Source: Candidatus Hadarchaeota archaeon (GTDB lineage: Archaea; Hadarchaeota; Hadarchaeia; Hadarchaeales; Hadarchaeaceae). Taken from it: a stretch of 14,255 nucleotides of DNA. Location of the stretch: NCBI GenBank assembly GCA_040755315.1, contig JBFMBF010000028.1, positions 1-14,255 of the forward strand, in the 5' to 3' direction. Numbering within the stretch: the stretch's first letter is position 1; each line of letters opens with the position of its first letter. A model generated the notes under the pieces. It was not told where the DNA came from. It saw only the letters and a list, made by a program, of their open reading frames with translations, and made no database searches. Position numbers and translations under genes: made by a program. This document shows, one piece after another, positions 44 to 13,885 of the stretch.

Positions 44-547
44 TTATTTGAGCGCCCTCATCCGCGCTAGAATGTTTTCCTGTTTTTCATCGCTCAGGCT
101 GAGAACCATCGGGAAGGCCACGGCCTCCTCAAGCGAGAAGTGCCGCTTCATAAAAGTAATCATGTTGTTTCCTAACAGTACGGAAAGGTCCCTCAATTGT
201 TTGTTTTTGCGCTTCACAGCTCCACTTATCAGTCGGTTCACCGTGGAAGATATCATAATCCAGTCGTCGTGTTCAAACTTCACCAGCGGGAAGAGGTCGT
301 TGAACGCCAGTATGTGAATGTCGCTTTTCGGCAGCTCGTCGAGTGCCGGGAACAAAAATTTGGTTTCCTTCATGAAATGGGGGCCAAACTGGTTCGCGAT
401 TTCTACCAGCTTTTCCAACGAGTCCCACACCTCATCCCCCATGTTTGGGTTCCGCAGCACATCCTCAACCGGAGCTATGTCCATCAGTATTCTCTCGTGG
501 TCGTCCAACAGAATTTTTACTATCTCGTTTGACTTCGCGTTTTTCAT
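44..547 (-). CDS. Hemerythrin-like (HHE cation-binding) domain protein, 167 aa
   Basis: Helical protein with the two-repeat H...HxxxE pattern: H17 (DDHERI), H57/E61 (HFMKETKFLFP), H93 (EHDD), H136/E140 (HFSLEEAVAFP). Confidence 0.8.
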   Translation of the reverse strand: MKNAKSNEIVKILLDDHERILMDIAPVEDVLRNPNMGDEVWDSLEKLVEIANQFGPHFMKETKFLFPALDELPKSDIHILAFNDLFPLVKFEHDDWIMISSTVNRLISGAVKRKNKQLRDLSVLLGNNMITFMKRHFSLEEAVAFPMVLSLSDEKQENILARMRALK

Positions 548-649
548 GATTACACTAATGTGAATATCTTTCTTATTAGTAAGCTTTTGGTGTCATGTCG
601 CCGTTATCACAATTTTTTAATAGCACGAGGGAGTTATTTCTTGGAGAGG

Positions 650-1261
650 ATGGAGAAAAAAGGAACAGTTTATGGCGGCTCGATTGGCATTTCCGCTGTG
701 ATCATCATTATTGTTGTCTCCATTGGTGCATCTTACATTTTAATTAACAGAGGCGCCGGACCGAGTGGAACCAGCGGCGGAACGGGAGAAACAGTGAGCC
801 TGACAGACATAACGTTGTCCGAAGCCGTTACGCGAGCCAAGAGTGACGCAACTGCCCGCGGTTACACAGACGCACAGCTGACTTACAATGTTTCTGCCGC
901 GAACTTCACGCGTGACGGCAAGGCGAGCTGGAGCATCAAGCTTTTCTCATCCAGCAGAAATGCAGAGATATCTTATGCTAGCACTGGCTTCGAGTTTGTG
1001 ATGGAAAATGCCTCTTCGATGCAACTGCTCACAAGCTTTGCAGATTCCTCCCAGATTGCGTCCAATAATCAAGAGATTTGGAGTTTTGCGGACAACCAGC
1101 AGAGCTCAACAGTTACAACCCTGATTGACACATACTTGGGCGGGATAGCTCCATATCATGGAAACAAAGCTTGGAAAATCACTGTCACATACGGGCCGCC
1201 CACCGACCGTGAAAGCACCAACTGGTGGGTTGCCATATCGACTGGCGTGAAGATTTCATGA
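650..1261 (+). CDS. Membrane-anchored/secreted protein with probable tandem PepSY-like folds, 203 aa
   Basis: ATG at 650 follows GGAGAGG. N-terminus is MEKKG plus a hydrophobic helix (ISAVIIIIVVSIGASYILI), then a G/S/T linker. ITLSEAV..AK and WKITV...WVAISTG resemble PepSY repeats. N-glycosylation sequons NVS, NFT, NAS. Confidence 0.6.
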   Translation: MEKKGTVYGGSIGISAVIIIIVVSIGASYILINRGAGPSGTSGGTGETVSLTDITLSEAVTRAKSDATARGYTDAQLTYNVSAANFTRDGKASWSIKLFSSSRNAEISYASTGFEFVMENASSMQLLTSFADSSQIASNNQEIWSFADNQQSSTVTTLIDTYLGGIAPYHGNKAWKITVTYGPPTDRESTNWWVAISTGVKIS

Positions 1262-1317
1262 GTGCTAGCTTAAACCTTGCAGACAAAATATTTTTTGTTA
1301 AACTAAAGTGATTAACT

Positions 1318-1332
1318 GAAAGAGAATTATAA
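1318..1332 (+). promoter_or_regulatory. Putative BRE-TATA promoter of moeA-mobB-moaA
   Basis: Purine run GAAAGAGAA followed by TTATAA (1327-1332), 33 nt before the ATG at 1360; no SD, consistent with a leaderless transcript. Confidence 0.5.
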
Positions 1333-1359
1333 CTGGCGGCGTTTAATTGTAATGGGAAA

Positions 1360-2604
1360 ATGCACAGGTTTCTTAAGATTGTGAGCCTGGAGGAGGCTAA
1401 AGCCGCCATCGGCAGCTATTGGCGCCCAGACCCTCGCATCGCATCGACAAGACTGGGGGATGCTGCCGGGAGGGTTCTGGCGGAAGACATAGTTTCAAAA
1501 ATCGACGTTCCTCCTTTTGACAGAGCGACCTACGACGGCCACGCCGTGAAGGCCGCGGACACTTTTGGAGCGAGCGAAAAGGCGCCGAAGCGGTTGCGGC
1601 GTTCGGGTCGGCTGAGAGCCGGGCAGTGGCCGAGGTCGAAGCTCATGAGCCGGAAATGTGTGGAAATCTCAACTGGCGCCCCGATTCCAGATGGGGCGGA
1701 CGCAGTCGTGATGTATGAAAACACCTCCGCTGAAGGCGCGCGGGTTCTGGTCAACAGGCCAGTGGCCCCAGGTGAAAACGTCCTCCGGAAAGGCTCGGAC
1801 ATCCGCGCGGGGCAGAAGGTCTTGAAAAGGGGGACGGTTCTGACGGAGGTAGAAATTGGGGCAATCGCCGCCGTTGGTGTTGCAAATGTCAAAACCTTCG
1901 CCAGACCGAGAGTCGCAATAATATCAACAGGGTCAGAACTCGTGGCGGCTGGGCGGACCCTCGGGCGCGGCAAAGTGTACGACGTGAACGGGTGGGCCAT
2001 CGCGGCGGCCGTCAGGACATGTGGTGCGGGGCCCTTTTACCTAGGGATTGTTAAAGACAGCGCCCCGGCGATTAAATCCGCAATTGACAAGGCGCTCCGT
2101 CTTTCTGAAGTTGTGATAATATCGGGCGGCACTTCAGCAGGGGCCGGGGATTTGGCCCCAAAAATAGCCGACGGCATGGGGAAGCCTGGCCTCGTTTTCC
2201 ACGGCCTCGCGATGAAGCCGGGAAAACCAGCGTTTGCCGCTGTGGTCCGCGGGAAACCTATTTTCGGACTCCCGGGCTATCCTGTTTCCGCCCTCATGGT
2301 TTTCCACCAGCTGGTAGCAGGTTACATCATGGAACTTTCCGGGCTCTCCGGGCGCGGCGGGCCAGCCATGCAGGCGAAGCTGGCGGAGAAAGTGATTCTG
2401 GCAAGGGGAAGGAGGGAGCTCATCCCCGTGAGGCTCACGGGGAAAGCCGGTGCCATGGTCGCGAAGCCCGTTCTGAAGGGCTCTGGAGCCGTGACTTCGC
2501 TGCTGCTGGCGGACGGCTACATAGACGCCGCGGCGGAAAGGGAATTTATTCCGGAGGGAGAAACTGTCAGGGTGAACCTGTTCGGAGGATGGAAAGGTGA
2601 TTAA
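1360..2604 (+). CDS. moeA: Molybdopterin molybdo/tungstotransferase MoeA (gephyrin E-like), 414 aa
   Basis: Motifs GRVLAEDI, PPFDRATYDG, ISTGAPIPDGADAVVMYE, STGSEL, SGGTSAG, MKPGKP, GLPGYPVS, GSG. Confidence 0.96.
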   Translation: MHRFLKIVSLEEAKAAIGSYWRPDPRIASTRLGDAAGRVLAEDIVSKIDVPPFDRATYDGHAVKAADTFGASEKAPKRLRRSGRLRAGQWPRSKLMSRKCVEISTGAPIPDGADAVVMYENTSAEGARVLVNRPVAPGENVLRKGSDIRAGQKVLKRGTVLTEVEIGAIAAVGVANVKTFARPRVAIISTGSELVAAGRTLGRGKVYDVNGWAIAAAVRTCGAGPFYLGIVKDSAPAIKSAIDKALRLSEVVIISGGTSAGAGDLAPKIADGMGKPGLVFHGLAMKPGKPAFAAVVRGKPIFGLPGYPVSALMVFHQLVAGYIMELSGLSGRGGPAMQAKLAEKVILARGRRELIPVRLTGKAGAMVAKPVLKGSGAVTSLLLADGYIDAAAEREFIPEGETVRVNLFGGWKGD

Positions 2605-3328
2605 GGTCATACAGGTCGTTGGAGTGCACGGCGCCGGGAAGACCATGGCTGTTGAGGTCCTTGTCAGGGAGCTGGTCCGGAGGGGCCGCCGCGTCGGGAC
2701 CGTGAAACACATCACGGAGAAGGACTTCACGATAGACCAAGCCGGAAAGGACACTTGGGTCCACGCGAGAGCCGGGGCGAGCGCTGTTGTTTCAGTCGCC
2801 CCGGGGGAAACTGCGTGGGTTCTGAAGCGTCGGGAAGAGCTGGGCGAGGTTCTGAACGAGATGAAGGATGTCGAAATCGTGGTGGTTGAGGGGTTCAGAA
2901 GCTTCAAGGGATACCCAAAAATCATTGCCGCCAGGACGGAGAAAGACGTGGAAGAGGTCGCGGACGAGTTTTCCGTGGCCGTGGTCGGGGCTTCCGGCCG
3001 AGGACTCCCGAGTTTCAGCTTGGACGATGCGGCGAAGCTGGCAGACTTCGCAGAGCTGAAGGCCCTGCCGCCGATGCCGGAACTCAACTGCAAACGTTGC
3101 GGCTACAACACCTGCGTCGAGCTTTACGCAGCTGTCCTGTCGGGGAAGGCCAAGTTAGAGAGCTGCCAGACCCTGCCCACAAAGGTAATTGTCAGGGTGG
3201 ACGGGAGGGAGCTGGCGTTGAACCCGTTCGTCCAAGAAATCGTCCAGCGCACGATCCAAGGGATGGTTTCATCTTTGAGGGGCGGCGAAGGCGGGATAAT
3301 CGAGATCAGGGTGATGAAGCGTGATTGA
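2597..3328 (+). CDS. mobB: Molybdopterin-guanine dinucleotide biosynthesis protein MobB with C-terminal 4-Cys Fe-S domain, 243 aa
   Basis: GTG start overlapping the moeA stop. P-loop GVHGAGKT, VKH, GKDT, VEGF. C-terminal NCKRCGYNTC...C (RnfB/AcsC-type FeS motif) and the LNPFVQ tail seen in archaeal MobB. Confidence 0.92.
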   Translation: MIKVIQVVGVHGAGKTMAVEVLVRELVRRGRRVGTVKHITEKDFTIDQAGKDTWVHARAGASAVVSVAPGETAWVLKRREELGEVLNEMKDVEIVVVEGFRSFKGYPKIIAARTEKDVEEVADEFSVAVVGASGRGLPSFSLDDAAKLADFAELKALPPMPELNCKRCGYNTCVELYAAVLSGKAKLESCQTLPTKVIVRVDGRELALNPFVQEIVQRTIQGMVSSLRGGEGGIIEIRVMKRD

Positions 3329-4241
3329 CAGGTTCGGGCGGCCAGTGAAGGGGCTCAGAGTTTCCATCACGGAGCGATGCAACTTCAACTGTTTCTACTG
3401 CCACAAGGAGGGTTGCCCGCCTTCGGCTTCTGAGATGACTCCTTCTGAAATTGGGAGCATCATCAGGGTTGCCGCTGATTTCGGGGTTGAAAAGGTGAAA
3501 ATAACCGGGGGTGAGCCGCTCGTCAGGGGGGACGTCGTTGATGTGGTCTCCGCGGTCTCCGTGCCGGGAATAAAGGATGTTTCTATGACGACAAACGGGG
3601 CCATGCTCGCGGATATTGCCCATGAGCTCGCGGAGGCCGGGCTTCACAGGGTAAACATAAGCTTGGACACTCTGGACCAGGCCAATTTTTCAAAAATAAC
3701 CGGCGATGGCTCTCTTTCAAGTGTTCTTGCCGGGGTGGACGCGGCGCTTGAGGCCGGATTGAACCCTGTGAAGTTGAACATGGTAGTACTCGCCGGGGTG
3801 AACGACGGCGAGGTCGAGCGTATGATAGCTTACGCCTCCGAACGCGGCGCCATCCTTCAGCTGATAGAGCTCATCGATTTGAACGGGATGGAATTCTCGA
3901 CGTACCACAAGGGGCTGAGCGGCGTGGAGCAGAAGCTGCGCTCCATGGCCGTGGGAATAAACACCCGCCGCTCGATGCAGGCTAGGAAAAAATACATCCT
4001 GCCAGCGGGGGAAGTGGAACTCGTCTGCCCAATGCACAACACTGAGTTCTGCTCCCACTGCACGAGGCTGCGCCTGACCGCCGACGGCCGCTTGAAGCCG
4101 TGCCTGATGAGGAACGACAACCTAGTGGATGTGATTTCATTTGTCAGAAAGGGGGATACAGATGGCGTGCACGAAGCTTTCCGCGAGGCTATAGCGCGCC
4201 GTGAGCCATTCTTTAAGGCTTGGACGTCGGCGCCGGTGTAA
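3321..4241 (+). CDS. moaA: GTP 3',8-cyclase MoaA (radical SAM), 306 aa
   Basis: DRFGR, LRVSIT, CNFNCFYC (CxxxCxxC), TGGEP, TTNG, RVNISLD, second cluster FCSHCTRLRLTADG..KPCL. GTG start overlaps the mobB stop. Confidence 0.97.
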   Translation: MIDRFGRPVKGLRVSITERCNFNCFYCHKEGCPPSASEMTPSEIGSIIRVAADFGVEKVKITGGEPLVRGDVVDVVSAVSVPGIKDVSMTTNGAMLADIAHELAEAGLHRVNISLDTLDQANFSKITGDGSLSSVLAGVDAALEAGLNPVKLNMVVLAGVNDGEVERMIAYASERGAILQLIELIDLNGMEFSTYHKGLSGVEQKLRSMAVGINTRRSMQARKKYILPAGEVELVCPMHNTEFCSHCTRLRLTADGRLKPCLMRNDNLVDVISFVRKGDTDGVHEAFREAIARREPFFKAWTSAPV

Positions 4242-4250
4242 AGACGCGTG

Positions 4251-4363
4251 TCAATGAGCGGTGAGGGCATAACTTTTTCCAACCATCTCAAAAGCTCAAC
4301 GTTGATGTCCTTCTCATCGCGAATCTTCACGAAATGCAAGTACACTTTCCGATTTTTTAATGA
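4251..4363 (-). pseudogene. 3' remnant of a DUF5655-like small gene
   Basis: Minus strand reads SLKNRKVYLHFVKIRDEKDINVELLRWLEK; restoring one A in a 5-A run continues SYALTAH-stop (TGA at 4253-4251). This matches the H.VKI...DID.EL..WL..AY ending of DUF5655-type proteins. An in-frame stop lies just upstream. Confidence 0.5.
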
Positions 4364-4407
4364 CTACCGCTAACCATTTAATTTTGCTGCATGAAATCAC
4401 AGTTGTC

Positions 4408-5202
4408 ATGAAATTTGCGCTGTTGTTTGCATATGACGGCTCGCGATACTTCGGCTTTGCCCGTCAGCCAGGAAAGGCGACAGTGGAAAGCGAGGTGCTT
4501 AAGGCCCTGCGCGGCTGCGGAGTGTTCAGCAGTCTAACCGAGGCGGGGTACAGGGCGGCGTCAAGGACAGACAAGGGAGTCAGCGCGACGGGACAGGTGA
4601 TATCTTTAAAAACAACATCCAAACCGGACATCTCGCTTGTAAACACTGGACTTCCGGAAGACATCTCGATTTTGGCTGCAGAGGAAGTGGAGCCCGACTT
4701 CGACGCTAGGAAGATGGCAGTGGAAAAGCGTTACAGGTATCTCTGCGATGCCCCGCCAAATTTCAGTCTCGGCACGGCACAAAAGGCGGTGAAAATGTTT
4801 TGTGGTAGGCACGACTTCTTCAACTTTTGCAAGAGGGAGCCGGGGAAGCCGACCGAAATGAAGCTCATTGTCACTATTAAATCCGGAAAGCCGCTTCGCC
4901 TCGACTTCCACGGCGATAGGTTCCTATTGCAGCAGGTCAGGAGGATTACTCAGGCCATCCTTCAGGCGGGGCGAGGGGACATCTCGCTTGAGGTAATAGA
5001 AGCAATGCTTAACAGAATGGTTGACCGTTCTCTGCAGCCAGCTCCTCCCGAAGGCCTGTTTCTTTTGGGTGTGGAATACACAGGGCTTAAGTTCAAGCCG
5101 GATGTTGAGGCAGTTGAAAGGTTTGAGTCATATCTGGGGAAGAAAGGAGCGCCTATCCACAAAGAGATGGCTGTGGCCCTGCGAGGCCTCCGACGGAGCT
5201 GA
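4408..5202 (+). CDS. truA: tRNA pseudouridine(38-40) synthase TruA, 264 aa
   Basis: AYDGSRYFGFARQP, catalytic SRTDKGVSA, RYRY, GRHDFFNF, FLLQQVRRI, APPEGLFL. Start set at ATG 4408 because TTTAAT at 4377-4382 lies 31 nt upstream. Confidence 0.95.
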   Translation: MKFALLFAYDGSRYFGFARQPGKATVESEVLKALRGCGVFSSLTEAGYRAASRTDKGVSATGQVISLKTTSKPDISLVNTGLPEDISILAAEEVEPDFDARKMAVEKRYRYLCDAPPNFSLGTAQKAVKMFCGRHDFFNFCKREPGKPTEMKLIVTIKSGKPLRLDFHGDRFLLQQVRRITQAILQAGRGDISLEVIEAMLNRMVDRSLQPAPPEGLFLLGVEYTGLKFKPDVEAVERFESYLGKKGAPIHKEMAVALRGLRRS

Positions 5203-5203
5203 G

Positions 5204-5743
5204 TTACGATTTCTTTTTAAGGGTCACGTCGAGCACGCCGTTGATGTAAGACACGTCCGCGCTTTTCGGGTCAACTTTTTCTGAAAGCTCCACTTCCTTG
5301 TAGTACTTCCGCTCAGGCGTGTCTACCGAAATCACGAGACTTTTTTCAGTTGTTTTTAGTTTTATATCCTTCTTTTCCACTCCCGGAACCTCTGCGACAA
5401 CCCTCACGACATCCTTGCCAGTTATGATGTCCACGACGGGCTCCCTTTTCTCTGTGGTTTTCGGGGCAGGCTCCCCAGGCTTAACATTGCCGAAAGTTCT
5501 GATCTTGGGGACACCATCAGGCCCTATCGTGATGGAATAGCCGTAGACCATCGGGCCGAAGCTCTTGACGATTTCTCCATCTTTTAACCTCTTTTCCTTG
5601 AAGAGCCTCTCAGGCACTGACGGCGGCATTTCCTTGAACATCTCGGAGAACTCTTTTGACATCTCTTCAAGCGCCTTGTCAAAGTCTTTCATGACGTTGC
5701 GAAACGATTTCCTGCGTCGAAACCATTCCTCAAACGGGTCCAT
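5204..5743 (-). CDS. hsp20: Archaeal small heat shock protein Hsp20, 179 aa
   Basis: GPMVYGYSITIGPDG.P.IRTFGNV, REPVVDI, VVAEVPGVEK, YYKEVEL, SYINGVLDV (alpha-crystallin domain). Start at 5743 is preferred from promoter geometry; 5758 is an alternative. Confidence 0.93.
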   Translation of the reverse strand: MDPFEEWFRRRKSFRNVMKDFDKALEEMSKEFSEMFKEMPPSVPERLFKEKRLKDGEIVKSFGPMVYGYSITIGPDGVPKIRTFGNVKPGEPAPKTTEKREPVVDIITGKDVVRVVAEVPGVEKKDIKLKTTEKSLVISVDTPERKYYKEVELSEKVDPKSADVSYINGVLDVTLKKKS

Positions 5744-7992: not shown

Positions 7993-8553
7993 TCAAGCGC
8001 CACTTTTTTCCATTGTTTTCAAACACTCGGCGGGGATTCGGTCTGCGAGGTACACCTTTTCCGAAGCCTTCACGATTTTCACGCCGCGTTCTTTCGCCTT
8101 CCTGACGTCCACCACCAGCACAGCCGGTTTGGCCGTGTGCCGCCCGCCGACCTCGAGCGCATTTTCCACCTTCGCTGAAAGGTGCACCATCTTTCTGTCC
8201 ATTGGTTTCAACCCTTCGGCCAAGATCTGGGCGACCATCTCAGGGGAAGTGCAGTGGTAGAGCATGTCCACGTTGGCCTCCGGGAAGTCCAGCTTCACGT
8301 CAACAGAGTGGCCGTAGCGGGCCCTGATGAGTCTGCCCTTCAGCTCGTACCTCCCTCTCGGATCGAAGATAGCAATCTCCCGGATGTTGCTCGGCTCCAC
8401 CCAAGGCGCTTTTTCCCTGAGTATCTGCGTGAGCTTCTCCACCTCCACGAAGCCTTCAGCCGTGCGCTCGATGTCCGGGTCGTGGCGTAGGTGGTATGCC
8501 ATCAGCCTGCTCAGCCTGTCCCTCTGGATGTCGTCGATCTCCATGTTGCTCAC
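7993..8553 (-). CDS. kptA: RNA 2'-phosphotransferase KptA/Tpt1, 186 aa
   Basis: LSRLMAYHLRH, GRYE, IRARYGHS, LYHCT (usually HGT), GLKPMDRKMVHLS, VYLADRIP. GTG start overlaps the upstream TGA (GTGA); ATG 8544 is an alternative. Confidence 0.93.
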   Translation of the reverse strand: MSNMEIDDIQRDRLSRLMAYHLRHDPDIERTAEGFVEVEKLTQILREKAPWVEPSNIREIAIFDPRGRYELKGRLIRARYGHSVDVKLDFPEANVDMLYHCTSPEMVAQILAEGLKPMDRKMVHLSAKVENALEVGGRHTAKPAVLVVDVRKAKERGVKIVKASEKVYLADRIPAECLKTMEKSGA

Positions 8554-9677
8554 CCAACCTTTTTGTAAACCTTCCTGTAAACACTTCTGTATTTACCAGC
8601 CTTCTTTGGTTTCGCCAGCATGGCCTCCTTCTCCTCCTCCGTCTCCCTTCTGCAGGCCGGGCATAGGAGAATGAAGTTTGAAACATCGTCCTCACCTTCC
8701 GGGTCCACCTTATACGCTTTGACCCTTTCCTCGGTCAGGCAGGCCTCGCACCTCTTCCCCAGCACCACTGCAATGAATGTGAAGAAGAGCCCGTCCGCGA
8801 GCCTCTGCAGCTTTTCCCTGCCTTCCACCTTCATCCTCCATTCCTCAGGGATTGCCGATTCGCCGAGAAAGGCACCGGAGATCGCCCCCGTCATCGCCCC
8901 GATGGTGTCTGCATCACCGCCGAGCGAAACCGCGTTTACAACAGCCTCCCTGAAGTCTTTCGGGCTGCTCAAGAAGGAGTAAATTGCGGTCAGTACCGAG
9001 TTGAAAGCCTCTCCGCCATTGCCCAGCCTCTCCACGACCTCCGACGGCTTCCCCCCGTCCAGTAGCAGCTGGATCGCCTTCAGCTTCTCCAGATAAACCT
9101 CATTCTTAGCCACTGCCATAAGCGTCTGTATGAACTCCTGGGCGGTGAACCCCTCCGACGGGTCACTTCCTGTGGCAAACGCGACAGCGAACGCTTGCAA
9201 AACCGCGCCCTCAATCCCTAGCTCATGTACATGAGTGATCTTGCTTGATTCCTCGGCCACCGACCTCAGGAGTTCAGCGTCATGATGGCAGGAGATGGCC
9301 ACTGGCGCAATCCTCATTGCGGCGCCGTTCCCGTATGAACCTTTGCCACCTATCGCCTCCTTTGCGGGAGCATCCCAGGCCGCTCCTTCTTTAATCTTCT
9401 GAAGCACAAAAGTCGTCGATATCCCGTAACCTCGGCTCGGGTCGTAATTCTTCGCGAAGAGCTTGGCCGCATGCTCCGCGTCAAATCCTCTAAGCTCCAC
9501 TAGGGACTCTGCAAGGTCCATCGCCATCTGGGTGTCGTCGGTGAACTTCAACTCGCCTTTGGCCGCAGACTCGACTTCTTCCCTGCTTGTCGCCCCACGC
9601 CCCTCAAAATGCCTGCCAACTGCATCTCCAACCGCCGTCCCAAACATCGCCCCCCTGAACTTCGCCTTCAGGTTCAT
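8550..9677 (-). CDS. ADP-ribosylglycohydrolase (DraG/ARH3 family) with C-terminal HNH-like Zn finger and basic tail, 375 aa
   Basis: GDAVG, TDDT, GNGAAMRIAP, ITH, GGDADTIGAMTGAISGA (metal-binding acidic motifs intact). ATG 9677 follows GGTGAG-ACT. C-terminus CEAC...NFILLCPAC then KPKKAGKYRSVYRKVYKK. Confidence 0.9.
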   Translation of the reverse strand: MNLKAKFRGAMFGTAVGDAVGRHFEGRGATSREEVESAAKGELKFTDDTQMAMDLAESLVELRGFDAEHAAKLFAKNYDPSRGYGISTTFVLQKIKEGAAWDAPAKEAIGGKGSYGNGAAMRIAPVAISCHHDAELLRSVAEESSKITHVHELGIEGAVLQAFAVAFATGSDPSEGFTAQEFIQTLMAVAKNEVYLEKLKAIQLLLDGGKPSEVVERLGNGGEAFNSVLTAIYSFLSSPKDFREAVVNAVSLGGDADTIGAMTGAISGAFLGESAIPEEWRMKVEGREKLQRLADGLFFTFIAVVLGKRCEACLTEERVKAYKVDPEGEDDVSNFILLCPACRRETEEEKEAMLAKPKKAGKYRSVYRKVYKKVG

Positions 9678-9687
9678 AGTCTCACCG

Positions 9688-10476
9688 CTAAAACTTCTCC
9701 GTCTCTTCCCCGAGGTCGAGCTCTCCTTCCTTGCCGAAAACCGCCTGGATTGCGCTAACAAGTTCCGTGATTCCCCGGTGGTCGGCCGCCGAAACAGGCA
9801 TGAGCTCTCCCGCGAAGCTGACCTTCTCCACGGCTTCAAGGAGGCCGAGAGCTGCTTCCCTGCCGAGTGGGCTCGGTTCTTCCTCAATTGCGTCGAGAAG
9901 TAAATCCCGGCGATCCGCCCAGCTGACTGCCCTCTCCCTGTCTTCCCGACCAACTGCATCTATCTTTGTAAGCAGGTTGATTTGGGGAGTCCTGAACCTA
10001 GCCAAAACGGATGTAGCGAGCATCAGCATGGAAACAAAGGAGCTTGCCCTCTTGGCGAGGAACGAGTCGATCAGAAAGAGGACGATGGAATCTCCTCGCG
10101 GGCTGAGTCCGCCCACCACGGCCGGGCCTGTCTCCCTGAAGGCGAAGAGTTCCATCTGTCCTGGCGTGTCAACAATGACATAATCCGGGTTCTGCGCAGC
10201 GATTGTTTCACCTATTCGCGGGAGTTCGTTCACGACAAGGTCCACTGCCACTATCAGGGCCCCGTTAGGTCCCAACCTGTACTCCTTCATGACCTGCGAG
10301 AGGGAAATCTGGGGCCTGATGTCTATCTCAGGGGTGTAAGGCAGCCACTCCGCTCCTGGGTCCAGATTCATGATGGGGCACCTGAGGCCGTGCGACTCGA
10401 AATCTTCGGAGAGTGCCGCTGCGAGGGTGGACTTCCCGCAGCCTGCCGGCCCGAGGAGGTAGATGAAGTTTGTCAT
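9688..10476 (-). CDS. GPN-loop GTPase, 262 aa
   Basis: GPAGCGKST (G1), NLDPG, LGPNGAL (GPN loop), DTPGQ (G3), TKID (G4), SA (G5). Confidence 0.94.
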   Translation of the reverse strand: MTNFIYLLGPAGCGKSTLAAALSEDFESHGLRCPIMNLDPGAEWLPYTPEIDIRPQISLSQVMKEYRLGPNGALIVAVDLVVNELPRIGETIAAQNPDYVIVDTPGQMELFAFRETGPAVVGGLSPRGDSIVLFLIDSFLAKRASSFVSMLMLATSVLARFRTPQINLLTKIDAVGREDRERAVSWADRRDLLLDAIEEEPSPLGREAALGLLEAVEKVSFAGELMPVSAADHRGITELVSAIQAVFGKEGELDLGEETEKF

Positions 10477-10518: not shown

Positions 10519-10526
10519 TTTTTAAA
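10519..10526. promoter_or_regulatory. TATA-like box between the GPN operon and the tRNA-like RNA, possibly bidirectional
   Basis: TTTTTAAA with palindromic TTTAAA core. On + it lies 31 nt before G10550, the first base of the 11-bp stem. On - it lies about 45-50 nt before the GPN ATG. Confidence 0.5.
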
Positions 10527-10542
10527 CCACCCTCACCCAAAA

Positions 10543-10720
10543 CTACGGCGGCAGTGCGGCGGTCCGGCCGTAGCTTAACAGCAGAGCGCCCGTCCGTAGA
10601 ACAGGAAGATGCGGGTGCAACTCCCGCCGGCCGGACGCACGGTCGCGTTCCCGGATGCGGCGGCCGCACTGCCCAAAAATGAAACGCCCGACAACATTTT
10701 GGTCGCCGGGCAAGCCGTAG
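10543..10720 (+). ncRNA. Larger structured RNA enclosing the tRNA-like domain
   Basis: Nested helices: 10543-10549/10714-10720 (7 bp); 10550-10560/10663-10673 (11 bp perfect); 10562-10570/10628-10636 (9-bp extended acceptor); hairpin 10642-10661 with three G-U pairs; hairpin 10686-10711. GC-rich island within AT-rich flanks. Confidence 0.65.
10564..10635 (+). tRNA. Non-canonical tRNA-Tyr(GUA)-like cloverleaf, probably a tRNA mimic rather than a translating tRNA
   Basis: CCGGCCG-TA-GCTT-AACAGCA-GAGC-G-CCCGT-CCGTAGA-ACAGG-AAGAT-GCGGG-TGCAACT-CCCGC-CGGCCGG-A. Has C1:G72, A73 and GTA anticodon, but C33, no D-loop GG, T-loop TGC, a C-A mismatch in the anticodon stem, and no CCA. Confidence 0.8.
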
Positions 10721-10724
10721 CTTA
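10567..10724 (+). repeat. 11-nt direct repeat GCCGTAGCTTA (10567-10577 and 10714-10724)
   Basis: Exact copy of the cloverleaf's acceptor/D-arm junction downstream. The core CCGTAG also occurs in the anticodon loop (10594-10599), and its reverse complement CTACGG is at 10543-10548. Confidence 0.75.
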
Positions 10725-10824
10725 TACCCACCCGTGTGAATAACAATATGTTTGATAATTCTAAAAAGTTTTTGGTTAAACAATGATGGTGCTGCTCACG
10801 AGAGGTGAGCTATCCACTAAAAAA

Positions 10825-13230
10825 TTAAATCTTGAAGCGGCTTGACAGCGAAGCATCGTGCGTGATTTTTCTCCGGTCTTCGCTTAGGTCTTCAAACATC
10901 TTCTTGGCAAGCAACCTTCCGCGCAGGTTGCCTAGTTCATGGTGGGAACCGTTCGTCAGTTCGGCTATCTGCCTGGTCACCCAAAAGCCGTATGTGTTCC
11001 GCCCGTATAAGTAAGGATTTGTATTCACGACAACCGTGTAAATCCCCGCTTTTCGGATCATCTTTGAAACAGCTAGGGCGTCATTGGTCGCCATGTAGTC
11101 ATACTTCCCATCGTCTATTCTCACTTTGTCAAAAATCCTGACCTCCTCCGCTTCTAGGCTCCTGTTCAGCGGGACGTTCGCGCAGCCGTCGGTTATTATC
11201 GCGATCACCGGCACGGTCGCCATGTCCCGCCGCTTGGTCTCCCTCAGGACCTCCAGCGCCTTCAGCATCCCGGCCGCGAGTGGCGTGTACCCGCTTATGG
11301 CCAGCGTGGATAGCTTGCTTGCGACGACCTTCAGGTTTGTTATCGGGTGCTGGACCACGACCGCCCCAGTGCCCTTCAGCGCCACTATCCCGACCTTGTC
11401 CCTGCCGCGGTAAGCGTCATTGTGCAACTTCAGTATTGCCTGCTTCGCCTCGTCGACGCTGAACGCCATGGACCCGCTCAAATCTATGACGAAAACTATC
11501 GTCATCGGCGCCCTGTATAGCCTGGACTTCTCCCGGACATCTTCCAACGCGATTTTCAGTGCGGCCCCAATCGGCCTCTCCCTGTGTTTTTGCCTCCTTG
11601 CGGCCACCCTGATAGTCGCGGGCAGATGAATGTCCTGCGGCCTGCCTGTCGGGTACCTCCAGCCGTAAGCCCTGCCGCGATTGAGCGTTGTCACCGCCTC
11701 CGCCCTTTTTCCAGCGGCGCTGCTGGTGACGCCCCTCACCCGCCGTTTAACCTTGAACGATAGCTTGGACGGCGGAAGAACGCTCTTTTCCATTTTCCCG
11801 ATCATGGGCGCGCCCTTGGTCACGTCTGGCTCCATCAAGGCGGCATCCACAGTTGGTATTCCGCCTGTGTCCGATCTCGGCTCTGGCTCCTCAAAAATCT
11901 GGTCTCTTTCTCCACCACTGACGGGCTCGCCGCCTCTGGATGCCGCGCTTTCCTCGGCCGGCTTCTCAGGCTTCCCCTCAAGTATGAACATCAGTCTGGC
12001 AAGGGCCCTGGAAAAAATTGAATCGCGTTTGGCTACCGTTCCCTTGAAAGGGTCTGTCTTGCTAAGGTCCGCCCCTTTTTTTGTCGCGAAAGACGGCCGT
12101 TTTCTCTCCAGTCCCTCTTGGTCCTCTAGGTCTTTTTCATTGTCTTCAGTTCCTTCAGGCGGCTTTGCCCTCGACATGTCTTCGTCAAAATATTTGGATT
12201 CATTTGATTTTTTCTTCAGGACCTCCTTAATTTCTTCGGGCGTGGCCGGCTCGAGGAACCCGCCCTCCCTCGTCCTGTGGCCCAGCGCAAGCTCGGCCGC
12301 CAGAAGAACGTCGACCAACGTGACCGTCTTCCTGTTTTCAAACGCCGCTAGGGTGGACGCCGCCTTGGCAATGACGATGTCCGGCCTCAAGCCGTCCACT
12401 TTCAGTTCCAAACATGCCAGGCTTATCGCTTCGAGAAGCGACTCTGGCATCTTCACGTTTGGCAGGATATCCCTCGCCCGAACGATCCTTTGGGCCAGCT
12501 CCTCCTCGCGGGGCTTGTATTTCTCCCTAAACGCCACGGAATCTTTCTCGAACTCAATGTTTTTCTTGACCACCTCTATCCTATCTCTTGCGGAATTTAT
12601 TTTTTCAACGCCGACTGACAGGGAAAAGCGGTCCAGCAGCTGGGGCCTCAGCTCCCCCTCCTCAGGGTTCATTGTCCCTATAAAAACAAACCGAGAAGGG
12701 TGGCTCGCGGATATCCCCTCCCTTTCGACGACGTTCCAGCCCGTCGCTGCGGCGTCCAGCAGGTCGTCCGCGATGTGGTCCGGCAGCAGGTTGATTTCGT
12801 CGACATAAAGGATATTCTGGTTAGCCTGCGCCAGGATGCCGGGCTCCAGCGCTTCGATGCCCATCTTTATCACCTTCTCCACATCCAAGCTCCCGACGAC
12901 CCGGTCCTCAGTGGCGCCCAGCGGCAGGTTGACGACCGCCATCTCCCGCTCCTCAGTAGGCAACTCCTCCCCCCTGTTGCGGCGTTCGGAGCACTTCTGG
13001 CACAAGCTTGAAAAATCGTGGGCGTCGCAGTTGAACTGGCAATCTTTTACGACCGTTATCTTCGGCAGGATGTCTATCAAAGCTCGCACCGCGGTTGTCT
13101 TCCCCGTACCCTTCGGACCTCTGATTAGAAGCCCGCCGATTTTCGGGTTGATGGCGTTTATCAGGAGAGCAAGCTTAAGCTTGTCCAGCCCCACCATTGC
13201 TGAAAAAGGAAAAATTATTCGTCCCCGCAT
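10825..13230 (-). CDS. ChlI/BchI-type AAA+ ATPase fused to a VWA domain (ChlD-like chelatase subunit), 801 aa
   Basis: FPFSAMVG, Walker [24 protein letters not shown], Walker [24 protein letters not shown], long charged linker, MIDAS DLSGS...TPL...ITDG. ATG 13230 follows GTGAT-CAC. Confidence 0.9.
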
Positions 13231-13240
13231 GTGATCACTT

Positions 13241-13885
13241 CTATATCTCGCGCATGGTGTTGACCACGTCTGCAACCGCACACTCAAGAAGCTTTTCCCC
13301 GAGGTACTTGCTCAAGCGAACGCTGAACTTTGAGACTTCCTGCGCCTGCTCCTCCGCCCAGGGATACCTTCCCCTTGCCTCCGACAACCCCACAAATCCT
13401 ACCTCAGGGTGCTTCGCGAAGTCCATGTGTTCGACAAGTTTGGAAGAGTTCGTTATCTCTATGGCGGCGCCCATGCTCAGTTCTCCGGTAGCCGCGTGCG
13501 GTCCCTCCAGGTCAATGAGAGTGTTGTTCATCACCAGTCGCACCCCGAGCTTTGCCTCAATTGCCGGGAGTTTTTCTTCAATCGGGTTGTTCCCACCGTG
13601 GCCGTTCACGAGCACGGCCGCCTTTATCCCGATGGCCCGCTTCGCGTTCCTGAGGGCTATCTCCAGCTCGTCCAAAACCTCATTCATTGACTGGTGCCGT
13701 CCAGTGTCGATTCCAGGCAGTTCATAGGAAGAGTAAAGCACGCCGATGAACTTTGCGCCGGTCCTCTTCGCCGCCTCCTCTGCGACAAAAGTTGCCAGCT
13801 TGGCGTCCGTGTCCTCTGGCAAGGCCGCTCCGTGCCTCTCCTCGTGTGAACCCAGCGCCATTATTCCGATGTCATCCAGTTGCAT
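13241..13885 (-). CDS. arfB: Creatininase-family FAPy-monophosphate deformylase ArfB (archaeal riboflavin/F420 pathway), 214 aa
   Basis: [40 protein letters not shown], and the ArfB-like segment [16 protein letters not shown]...LGEKLL. Confidence 0.85.

What the first reader, a model, noticed from the sequence alone, without database searches (positions are those of the whole stretch)
10543..10720. tRNA-like domain locked inside a larger multibranch ncRNA
Seen: the acceptor stem continues as U-A73 and G-C74, burying the discriminator. It sits in a three-way junction closed by a perfect 11-bp helix (GGCAGTGCGGC/GCCGCACTGCC) with a side hairpin (10642-10661) whose three G-U pairs favour the + strand. 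A further hairpin and a 7-bp outer helix follow. A TATA-like box lies 31 nt before G10550, the spacing seen for leaderless genes in this window, predicting an RNA of at least 124 nt (10550-10673). Established: bacterial Y RNAs and tmRNA embed tRNA-like domains in larger RNAs. Inference: this could be an undescribed archaeal tRNA-mimic ncRNA class; I do not recognise it as SRP RNA, RNase P RNA or a C/D or H/ACA guide.
Basis: partly seen in the sequence, partly recalled or inferred. Interest (0 to 1): 0.85.

Follow-up and report, generated by a model that had tools for sequence, protein, structure and literature searches.

The report
Caged tRNA with its own anti-tRNA
In uncultured Hadarchaeota archaea, odd transfer-RNA genes, many built so that they would misread the genetic code, each come paired with a tiny opposite-strand gene whose predicted RNA matches that tRNA's own anticodon arm, which looks like an undescribed RNA-only poison-and-antidote module.

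Summary
The structure is real: an atypical tRNA-Tyr-like domain (10564-10635) enclosed by an 11-bp helix that starts at the predicted +1, with compensatory changes in two congener paralogues. The 3' tail repeats the tRNA's 5' half up to the anticodon, and on the minus strand reads as a ~65-nt gene: promoter-like block, anti-anticodon segment, hairpin, U-tract. I found 30 such odd tRNA cores in 15 Hadarchaeota genomes behind one shared 32-bp promoter; 26 of 30 have a flanking copy identical to their own positions 27-36, across many different anticodon arms. Differences favour G-U pairing with the antisense strand (20 vs 8), and one inverted unit keeps the order antisense-hairpin-U-tract. Of 29 distinct cores, 15 have or would splice to 8-nt anticodon loops and 6 have body/anticodon mismatch. 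Best reading: a stress-induced miscoding tRNA held in check by a cognate anti-tRNA, working like TisB/IstR-1. The window copy looks partly defused (GUA, cognate; relatives GUG). Expression and toxicity are untested; six Asp-type cores look cognate. Not Y RNA or tmRNA.

The parts
10520..10551 (+). 32-bp shared promoter unit (TATA-like box 10520-10526, conserved spacer, predicted +1 at G10550), preceded by a pyrimidine tract instead of a purine-rich BRE
   Evidence: Pattern matches in 34 of 66 phylum genomes, reversed-pattern control 1 match in total; 225 distinct sites collected; a stricter exact pattern gave 61 stretches in the GTDB contig scan, all titled Hadarchaeota/Hadesarchaea. +1 is inferred from spacing.
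10550..10560 (+). 5' strand of the 11-bp caging helix
   Evidence: Pair probabilities 0.97-1.0; 2 two-sided and 2 one-sided changes in 3 copies; 9-13 bp leader-trailer duplex in 19 of 19 caged members versus -3.3 to -7.9 kcal/mol in 8 non-caged controls.
10564..10635 (+). Atypical tRNA-Tyr-like core: C1:G72, A73, short variable arm, C33, G55, no G18G19, one C-A mismatch in the anticodon stem, no encoded CCA; acceptor extended by 10562-10563 pairing with 10635-10636
   Evidence: read directly from the sequence.
10596..10598 (+). Anticodon GUA; the third base is G (GUG) in both congener paralogues, in the window's own tail, and in 8 of 8 related environmental contigs that cover 10598
   Evidence: contigs laid at 80% likeness; some may be from other organisms.
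10642..10661 (+). Side hairpin of the cage (8 bp, three G-U); length and sequence vary widely in the family
10663..10673 (+). 3' strand of the caging helix
10675..10684 (-). U-tract (A-rich on +): predicted terminator of the antisense RNA
   Evidence: A 10-nt window with 8 or more T on the minus strand follows the antisense segment in 21 of 25 distinct members. Termination is inferred.
10686..10711 (-). GC-rich hairpin of the antisense RNA, just before the U-tract
   Evidence: Fold of the minus strand; same order kept in the inverted unit of L229.
10714..10736 (-). Anti-tRNA segment: on + it repeats core positions about 4-13 and 26-36; on - it pairs with the core over 22 bp in two blocks (10 bp over the anticodon loop and stem including three G-U; 12 bp over acceptor 5' strand and D stem), -32.4 kcal/mol
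   Evidence: Predicted RNA about 10739 to 10675, ~65 nt (inferred).
10762..10776 (-). BRE/TATA-like block of the antisense gene
   Evidence: A CCGAAA..TTTTTA-like block lies 38-44 nt upstream of the complement of position 36 in 21 of 23 members; host tRNA genes carry similar blocks upstream (by eye).
9688..10476 (-). Neighbour: GPN-loop GTPase, divergent; followed by ADP-ribosylglycohydrolase and Tpt1. Not part of the module
   Evidence: Pfam; in congener G001 the orthologous gene trio has a different upstream neighbour and no module.
10825..13287 (-). Neighbour: ChlI-type AAA/vWA gene ending 50 nt before the antisense promoter; not part of the module

Best explanation
A two-RNA module that works like a stress-induced toxin-antitoxin pair. 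A regulon promoter drives a pre-tRNA whose ends are locked in a long helix (slow or delayed release by RNase P/RNase Z; inferred). Once released and CCA-tailed, the tRNA in most family members would miscode: 8-nt anticodon loops give +1 frameshifts, and body/anticodon mismatch gives missense (for this subfamily, a Tyr-type body with a His anticodon). A convergent standard-type promoter makes a ~65-nt RNA that starts at the anti-anticodon, kisses the loop, unzips the anticodon and D/acceptor 5' strands and neutralises that module's own tRNA. Shown: the layout, the tracking of each copy with its own core, the fixed promoter-like block and U-tract, the odd decoding anatomy. Inferred: transcription of either RNA, processing, charging, toxicity, and stress induction. 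The window copy is a drifted member: anticodon GUA now fits its Tyr body, so it is probably harmless.
For: 26 of 30 odd cores have a flanking copy identical at positions 27-36; two housekeeping tRNAs picked up by the same screen reach only 7 and 8 of 10. In 25 distinct pairs, core/copy differences at 22-36 are 20 G-U-compatible for the antisense strand, 8 incompatible, 14 transversions (one-sided p = 0.018, kin not independent). Minus-strand promoter block at a fixed distance in 21 of 23, in two different layouts (downstream in caged members, in the 5' leader in others). In L229 the unit is inverted yet keeps antisense-hairpin-U-tract order and pairs at -45.4 kcal/mol. For 4 of 5 modules of this genome the predicted RNA pairs better with its own core than with any of 36 other tRNA calls. 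15 of 29 distinct cores have 8-nt loops (7 directly, 8 after a BHB-type splice I inferred), 6 have mismatched identity; G37a-type loops are known +1 frameshifters and C1-G72 is an archaeal TyrRS determinant with tolerance to anticodon change (PMC11122139 passages). Decay pattern fits addiction: 29 of 30 cores keep a partner, the exception (L065) has a broken 1:72 pair and broken splice helix; partner units without a core and repeat-to-repeat deletions removing both functions are seen by eye (L076, L041, L038, L074, L149). The same promoter drives MazE, HEPN, DUF4258, RadC, nuclease, OB-fold and integrase genes.
Against: No expression data: nothing here shows either RNA exists. A repeat's reverse complement pairs with the original by construction, so the duplex ranking (own best or tied in 22 of 25) shows only that copies track cores. 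Six Asp-type cores (GUC, G73, canonical splice motif) and the window core itself look cognate, not miscoding. In the window the antisense pairing (-32.4) is beaten by one intron-containing host tRNA call (-35.0). The cage is not partner-specific in every member (own trailer ranks first in 8 of 19; median -18.1 vs -13.6). C33, G55 and loss of G18G19 in this subfamily may bar translation altogether. The G000 C8 'copy' is a plain partial duplication without a U-tract. No mobility gene or empty site was shown; no hits in IMG/VR for three patterns.
Confidence: 0.5

Rival explanations
1. Host-beneficial stress tRNAs: the same two-gene layout, but the tRNAs are spare, decoy or deliberately error-prone adaptors switched on with the DNA-uptake/DNA-damage regulon, and the antisense RNA only silences leak expression.
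For: The promoter is shared with what look like host genes (pilin-like, OB-fold, nuclease, RadC); six cores look cognate; stress-induced, aminoacylated spare tRNAs are known in Anabaena (PMC8421152 passages); two modules sit just upstream of the CCA-adding enzyme gene.
Against: Patchy presence (15 of 32 genomes whose promoter sites I examined), changing locations and anticodons, frequent decay, and strict one-to-one partner tracking are not what a conserved host function predicts.
Confidence: 0.22
2. Antisense-controlled processing switch: the tRNA fold is a cleavage/termination signal (RNase P/Z, splicing endonuclease) that controls the transcript, and the small RNA toggles its folding; the tRNA never works on the ribosome.
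For: In the leader layout an ORF follows the core directly (13-member uncharacterised family, zinc-ribbon ORF, CCA enzyme); 0 of 29 cores encode CCA; this subfamily lacks U33, U55 and G18G19.
Against: 19 caged members, the window included, have no conserved co-oriented gene; anticodon arms are diversified in decoding-relevant ways and the antisense always starts at the anticodon.
Confidence: 0.13
3. The repeat is a DNA-level feature (recombination/attachment site at the anticodon loop, or gene-conversion scar) of a small mobile cassette; no antisense RNA is made.
For: The repeat ends at the anticodon loop, a known integrase crossover site (recalled); repeat-to-repeat deletions exist (L074, L149); promoter units occur in cassette-like arrays (L038).
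Against: G-U bias, fixed promoter-like block plus hairpin plus U-tract on the opposite strand, and the inverted L229 unit, which could not act as a direct repeat; the layout does not match attL/attR geometry of a tRNA-targeting element.
Confidence: 0.1
4. A single stable ~124-nt tRNA-mimic ncRNA bound by a protein.
For: The cage is stable and covaries; both processing sites are paired.
Against: Cores are interchangeable and occur uncaged in a second layout; no Ro60/TROVE match in 66 genomes; does not explain the cognate antisense unit.
Confidence: 0.05

Closest known systems
SOS-induced type I toxin-antitoxin pairs (TisB/IstR-1, SymE/SymR, DinQ/AgrB)
   Same: Separate promoters, toxin gene in a stress regulon, antisense RNA from its own promoter (PMC11951105 passages); inert, end-paired primary transcript (recalled for type I toxins).
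   Different: The controlled product is a tRNA, not a peptide; archaeal; target is an anticodon loop.
Type VIII toxin-antitoxin systems (SdsR/RyeA; CreTA)
   Same: RNA toxin with RNA antitoxin (definition in PMC11951105).
   Different: CreA represses transcription through Cascade (abstract starts); neither toxin is a tRNA; here direct pairing to the anticodon arm is predicted.
Allo-tRNAs of Acidobacteria (Mukai et al., PMC5389517)
   Same: Missense tRNAs with identity/anticodon mismatch, lethal when induced in E. coli, often near toxin-antitoxin genes (passages).
   Different: 8/4 or 9/3 acceptor branch versus standard 7/5 here; bacterial; the word 'antisense' occurs 0 times in that main text (supplements not seen).
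SufA6/SufB2 +1 frameshift suppressor tRNAs
   Same: Extra base 3' of the anticodon giving an 8-nt loop (PMC11122139 passages).
   Different: Those are single selected mutants; here 8-nt loops recur in a natural gene family with a partner RNA. The window copy itself has a 7-nt loop.
Stress-induced long tRNA arrays (Anabaena trn operon)
   Same: Extra, atypical tRNAs silent until stress (PMC8421152 passages); a C33/G55 GUG tRNA like this core occurs in a soil-metagenome tRNA cluster (L007).
   Different: Single caged genes with one antisense partner each, not a repressor-controlled polycistron.
Bacterial Y RNA (YrlA) and tmRNA
   Same: tRNA-like domain inside a longer RNA.
   Different: YrlA mimics D, T and acceptor arms in a permuted order and binds Ro60 (PMC4201824 passages); here a full, unpermuted cloverleaf and no Ro60 match.

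Membership tests
Housekeeping archaeal tRNA-Tyr | C1:G72, A73, GUA anticodon, short variable arm | tested here: met
Housekeeping archaeal tRNA-Tyr | Invariant U33, U55, G18G19 and being the genome's Tyr decoder | tested here: not met
   C33, G55, no GG; a canonical intron-containing tRNA-Tyr lies on contig C13.
Y RNA / YrlA | Rfam match and a Ro60 (TROVE) partner | tested here: not met
   No such Rfam match to E 10; TROVE 0 of 66 genomes, controls ring in 2 of 14; genomes are incomplete.
Y RNA / YrlA | Permuted tRNA-like domain with closed acceptor stem-loop between T and D arms | tested here: not met
   Standard 5'-D-anticodon-T-3' order versus PMC4201824.
tmRNA | Tag ORF and free CCA acceptor end | tested here: not met
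   ARAGORN calls no tmRNA; no CCA.
Allo-tRNA | 8/4 or 9/3 acceptor/T-stem | tested here: not met
   All 29 cores parse as 7/5 (the parser looked only for 7/5).
Split or permuted archaeal tRNA | Complete separate halves joined through a bulge-helix-bulge | tested here: not met
   The core is already complete; the tail lacks part of the D arm and acceptor and forms no such motif with it (by inspection).
Type VIII toxin-antitoxin | Antitoxin is an RNA encoded beside the toxin RNA and specific for it | tested here: inconclusive
   Sequence signals support a cognate antisense gene; no transcript seen.
Type VIII toxin-antitoxin | The RNA is toxic and is neutralised by the partner | not testable with these tools
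   Needs expression tests.
Sulfolobales Orc1-2 DNA-damage regulon promoter | ANTTTC element bound by Orc1-2 | tested here: inconclusive
   Consensus upstream of the TATA box is A-A-T-T-T-T-C-C, resembling ANTTTC (PMC6061795 passages); regulator not sought; such a short motif is weak evidence.

The most novel reading that the evidence does not exclude
Hadarchaeota carry a diversified family of RNA-only addiction or stasis modules in which the toxin is a miscoding or frameshifting tRNA released from a caged precursor and the antidote is a dedicated small RNA that starts at the anti-anticodon, each anticodon arm forming its own incompatibility group, all wired into a DNA-uptake/DNA-damage regulon.
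Probability: 0.45. Interest if true: 0.93.

Novelty: categorically new. Interest (0 to 1): 0.83.

Why it matters
A tRNA gene with its own dedicated antisense inhibitor is a layout I did not find described (paper searches; the library lacks most subscription papers). If toxic, it formally joins type VIII toxin-antitoxin systems but by a mechanism unlike either known member, and it would give a concrete, testable role to miscoding tRNAs, which Mukai et al. could only associate with toxin-antitoxin loci. It supplies natural 8-nt-loop tRNAs and natural anti-tRNAs as switchable parts for code expansion. It also matters for annotation: tRNA finders count these cores as ordinary tRNAs (up to 6 of about 41 calls in this genome), distorting tRNA inventories of Hadarchaeota. 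Even under the milder rivals, antisense control of individual tRNA genes would be a new regulatory layer in archaea.

Tried and rejected
Outer 7-bp helix: rejected. Pyrrolysine/selenocysteine tRNA: no CUA/UCA anticodon, standard arms. Permuted/split tRNA and attL/attR geometry: do not fit (inspection). Y RNA: TROVE searches empty. Link to neighbouring Tpt1/ADP-ribosylglycohydrolase/GPN genes: congener locus lacks the module and paralogues sit beside unrelated genes. BLAST-type DNA search found only 2 of 41 genomes; the covariance model scored ordinary tRNAs at 35-54 bits, so 62 of 66 'matches' are mostly plain tRNAs and were not counted; members were picked by reading. IMG/VR scans with three patterns: 0 hits. 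Metagenome scan: one hit, a tRNA-cluster gene without the flanks. Sequencing runs: no RNA holder listed. Automated orphan-unit scan was too strict (20 units, one false orphan) and a genome-wide PWM scan recovered only 2 of the 6 modules among 7 candidates, so orphan examples are by eye. In one search the script first chose a chance site for the window's tail; I reset it to 10714-10736 (7 of 10 identical). Dropped before the G-U count: two housekeeping controls, L065 (no copy), L229 (inverted), and three duplicates. One search had a one-column slip in the structure string; one search is the corrected run. Body assignment by nearest host tRNA is weak (scores 24-34 of 38, host labels unreliable because of non-canonical introns). 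Look-ups of earlier findings gave nothing on this feature.

Full report
Observation. The window holds one tRNA-like gene, 10564-10635 on + (ARAGORN tRNA-Tyr GTA; Rfam RF00005 53.3 bits, no other family near threshold). The extended acceptor stem, the 11-bp closing helix (10550-10560/10663-10673), and the side hairpin with three G-U pairs are all there; the region folds better than 200 of 200 shuffles (z -3.1). The core is atypical (C33, G55, no G18G19, no CCA) and is not the genome's housekeeping Tyr or His tRNA, both of which exist elsewhere. The 7-bp outer helix is not supported: its 5' strand lies upstream of the predicted +1 inside a promoter motif, the same 7-mer occurs at another promoter of this genome, and other members show no consistent leader-tail pairing.

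Homologues. A DNA search of 41 related genomes found two full-length paralogues in one congener, beside unrelated genes. In the three-way alignment 97% of cells pair and 7 of 34 pairs change on both sides, 2 of them in the closing helix (only three related sequences). Both paralogues have anticodon GUG. A covariance model searched over 66 phylum genomes mostly returned ordinary tRNAs, but reading the hits exposed the same architecture around different tRNA cores. All share a 32-bp promoter unit that matches in 34 of 66 genomes (reversed-pattern control: 1 match); a stricter exact pattern gave 61 stretches in the GTDB contig collection, all titled Hadarchaeota. I collected the sites of 32 of those 34 genomes (and the laid genome): 225 distinct sites, 29 with a tRNA-like core within 480 nt, of which 2 are ordinary tRNAs far from the promoter. 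With three members whose promoter missed the pattern, the set is 30 odd cores in 15 genomes, 6 genera, 2 families. This genome has six modules (C28, C38, C11, C17, C8, and C35 found later and not in the counts). There are two layouts: caged (19 members, like the window) and leader-type (core 60-240 nt downstream of the promoter, often followed by an ORF).

Downstream of the cage the sequence repeats the core's 5' half up to the anticodon (10714-10736). Across the family the copy tracks its own core: 26 of 30 are identical at positions 27-36, against 7 and 8 of 10 for the two housekeeping controls; the others are the window (7 of 10), L050 (8), L065 (none) and L229 (inverted). Read on the minus strand, the copy is the 5' part of a small gene: a CCGAAA..TTTTTA-like block 38-44 nt upstream of the complement of position 36 in 21 of 23 members, resembling blocks before host tRNA genes, then the anti-anticodon segment, usually a GC hairpin, and a U-rich tract (8 or more T in 10 nt in 21 of 25). 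Core/copy differences are biased toward those an antisense strand tolerates as G-U (20 vs 8, p = 0.018; kin not independent). In L229 the unit is inverted and still reads antisense, hairpin, U-tract. For 4 of 5 modules of this genome the predicted RNA pairs better with its own core than with any of 36 other tRNA calls; the window is the exception (-32.4 versus -35.0 for one long intron-containing call). The duplex ranking (own best or tied in 22 of 25) is partly circular and I use it only as a measure of tracking.

What the cores would do. Of 29 distinct cores, none encodes CCA; 15 have an 8-nt anticodon loop (7 directly, 8 after a one-base-shifted bulge-helix-bulge splice that I inferred, helix 4/4 in four of them); 6 pair an anticodon with the wrong body (Tyr-type C1:G72/A73 with GUG in two; short-arm, non-G3:U70 bodies with Ser or Ala anticodons in four, two of these with ambiguous loop size); 6 are Asp-type with GUC, G73 and a canonical splice motif and look cognate; one is unresolved; one is the window. 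G37a-type 8-nt loops are known +1 frameshifters and C1-G72 is an archaeal TyrRS determinant that tolerates anticodon change (PMC11122139, passages). Other identity rules used here (A20 for Arg, G3:U70 for Ala, G-1/C73 for His) are recalled. The window's anticodon is GUA, cognate to its body, whereas both paralogues, its own tail and 8 of 8 related environmental contigs covering 10598 have G there (80% likeness, some may be other organisms); one such contig spans core and tail with a tail that matches the window-type anticodon arm. So the window copy looks like a defused allele whose partner has drifted.

Context. Of 225 promoter sites, 204 have an ORF of 55 aa or more starting nearby, 140 within 15 nt. 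Pfam on 43 of 63 cluster representatives gave OB-fold, thermonuclease plus lamin-tail, RadC, integrase, LAGLIDADG, DNA methylase, Schlafen, HEPN, DUF4258, DUF2283 and four MazE-type hits; 19 had no family. This reads as a DNA-uptake/DNA-damage and mobilome regulon (inference). The bases before the TATA box resemble the Sulfolobales ANTTTC damage element (PMC6061795, passages), a weak lead. Modules are patchy and move: the congener's GPN-ARH-Tpt1 locus has no module. Partner units without cores and deletions between the repeats occur (L076, L041, L038, L074, L149, L072, by eye), while the only core without a partner is damaged.

Mechanism. Most likely (0.5): induced transcription gives a caged pre-tRNA that matures slowly into a miscoding tRNA; a convergent small RNA starting at the anti-anticodon captures it; when induction outruns the antidote, or the module is lost, translation fidelity collapses and growth stalls. 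This is the logic of TisB/IstR-1 (PMC11951105, passages) with a tRNA as the toxin. Rivals: host-beneficial stress tRNAs silenced by the same antisense (0.22), a processing switch (0.13), a DNA-level repeat (0.10), a stable mimic RNA (0.05). The existence of a cognate antisense gene is common to the first three (about 0.85 together). Nothing here shows transcription, processing, charging or toxicity.

Comparison and novelty. It is not YrlA (PMC4201824, passages; TROVE 0 of 66), tmRNA, an allo-tRNA or a split/permuted tRNA. Closest in spirit are allo-tRNAs, which are lethal missense suppressors often near toxin-antitoxin genes (PMC5389517, passages; supplements not seen), type VIII systems such as CreTA (search listing and abstract starts), and the Anabaena trn operon (PMC8421152, passages). 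Seven paper searches returned no description of a tRNA gene with a dedicated anti-anticodon RNA; I saw listings and abstract starts only for those not named above, and most subscription papers are outside the library. Rfam finds only the tRNA family in 11 member loci. Spread outside Hadarchaeota was not testable beyond the promoter scan and three viral scans.

Verdict. Real, conserved, and stranger than first described: a two-gene tRNA/anti-tRNA module, architecture well supported, function inferred. Interest 0.83.

Noticed in passing
window 10520-10551 and 225 sites in 32 genomes: A highly conserved 32-bp promoter unit specific to Hadarchaeota drives mostly leaderless genes for pilin-like proteins, a membrane OB-fold protein, nuclease, RadC, Cas2-like small proteins and toxin-antitoxin parts; it looks like an undescribed competence or DNA-damage regulon, regulator unknown.
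   Followed up: partly
L038 (G055 C26) 150-5450: Cassette-like array: the promoter unit recurs before small HTH/toxin-antitoxin ORFs and three tRNA modules, with a conserved linker before several units; could be a recombination-built array.
   Followed up: partly
L134 and L141: Two leader-type modules lie directly upstream of the CCA-adding enzyme gene (Pfam).
   Followed up: no
L160:545-1306 (-) and relatives, 13 members: An uncharacterised protein family without a Pfam match follows several leader-type cores or the bare promoter.
   Followed up: no
L007 2667-3200: Soil-metagenome contig with a cluster of degenerate tRNAs beside a Pth2-like ORF (label recalled); one has the same C33/G55/GUG signature as this subfamily, with a 6-bp anticodon stem and no cage.
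   Followed up: partly
Asp-type cores (L062, L087, G000 C38): The intron can form an alternative hairpin that hides the splice helix, and its loop carries a CCGUR motif like the anticodon loop of the window's subfamily; a possible splicing switch.
   Followed up: no
window 7993-10476: Tpt1, ADP-ribosylglycohydrolase and GPN GTPase form a co-oriented trio kept in the congener; possible RNA end-repair operon.
   Followed up: partly
window 44-547 and G000 C38 7027-7530: The hemerythrin-domain ORF has a near-identical second copy at the end of contig C38; duplication or assembly overlap.
   Followed up: no
L006 (G001 C46): The two paralogues flank a sulfate-reduction/siroheme/SepCysS-like cluster (labels recalled from sequence).
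   Followed up: no
L058, L072, L076, L232, L260 downstream of the promoter: A recurring palindrome (GCGAACGTTCGC) follows the promoter at several sites, including two decayed modules; possible operator or small insertion scar.
   Followed up: no
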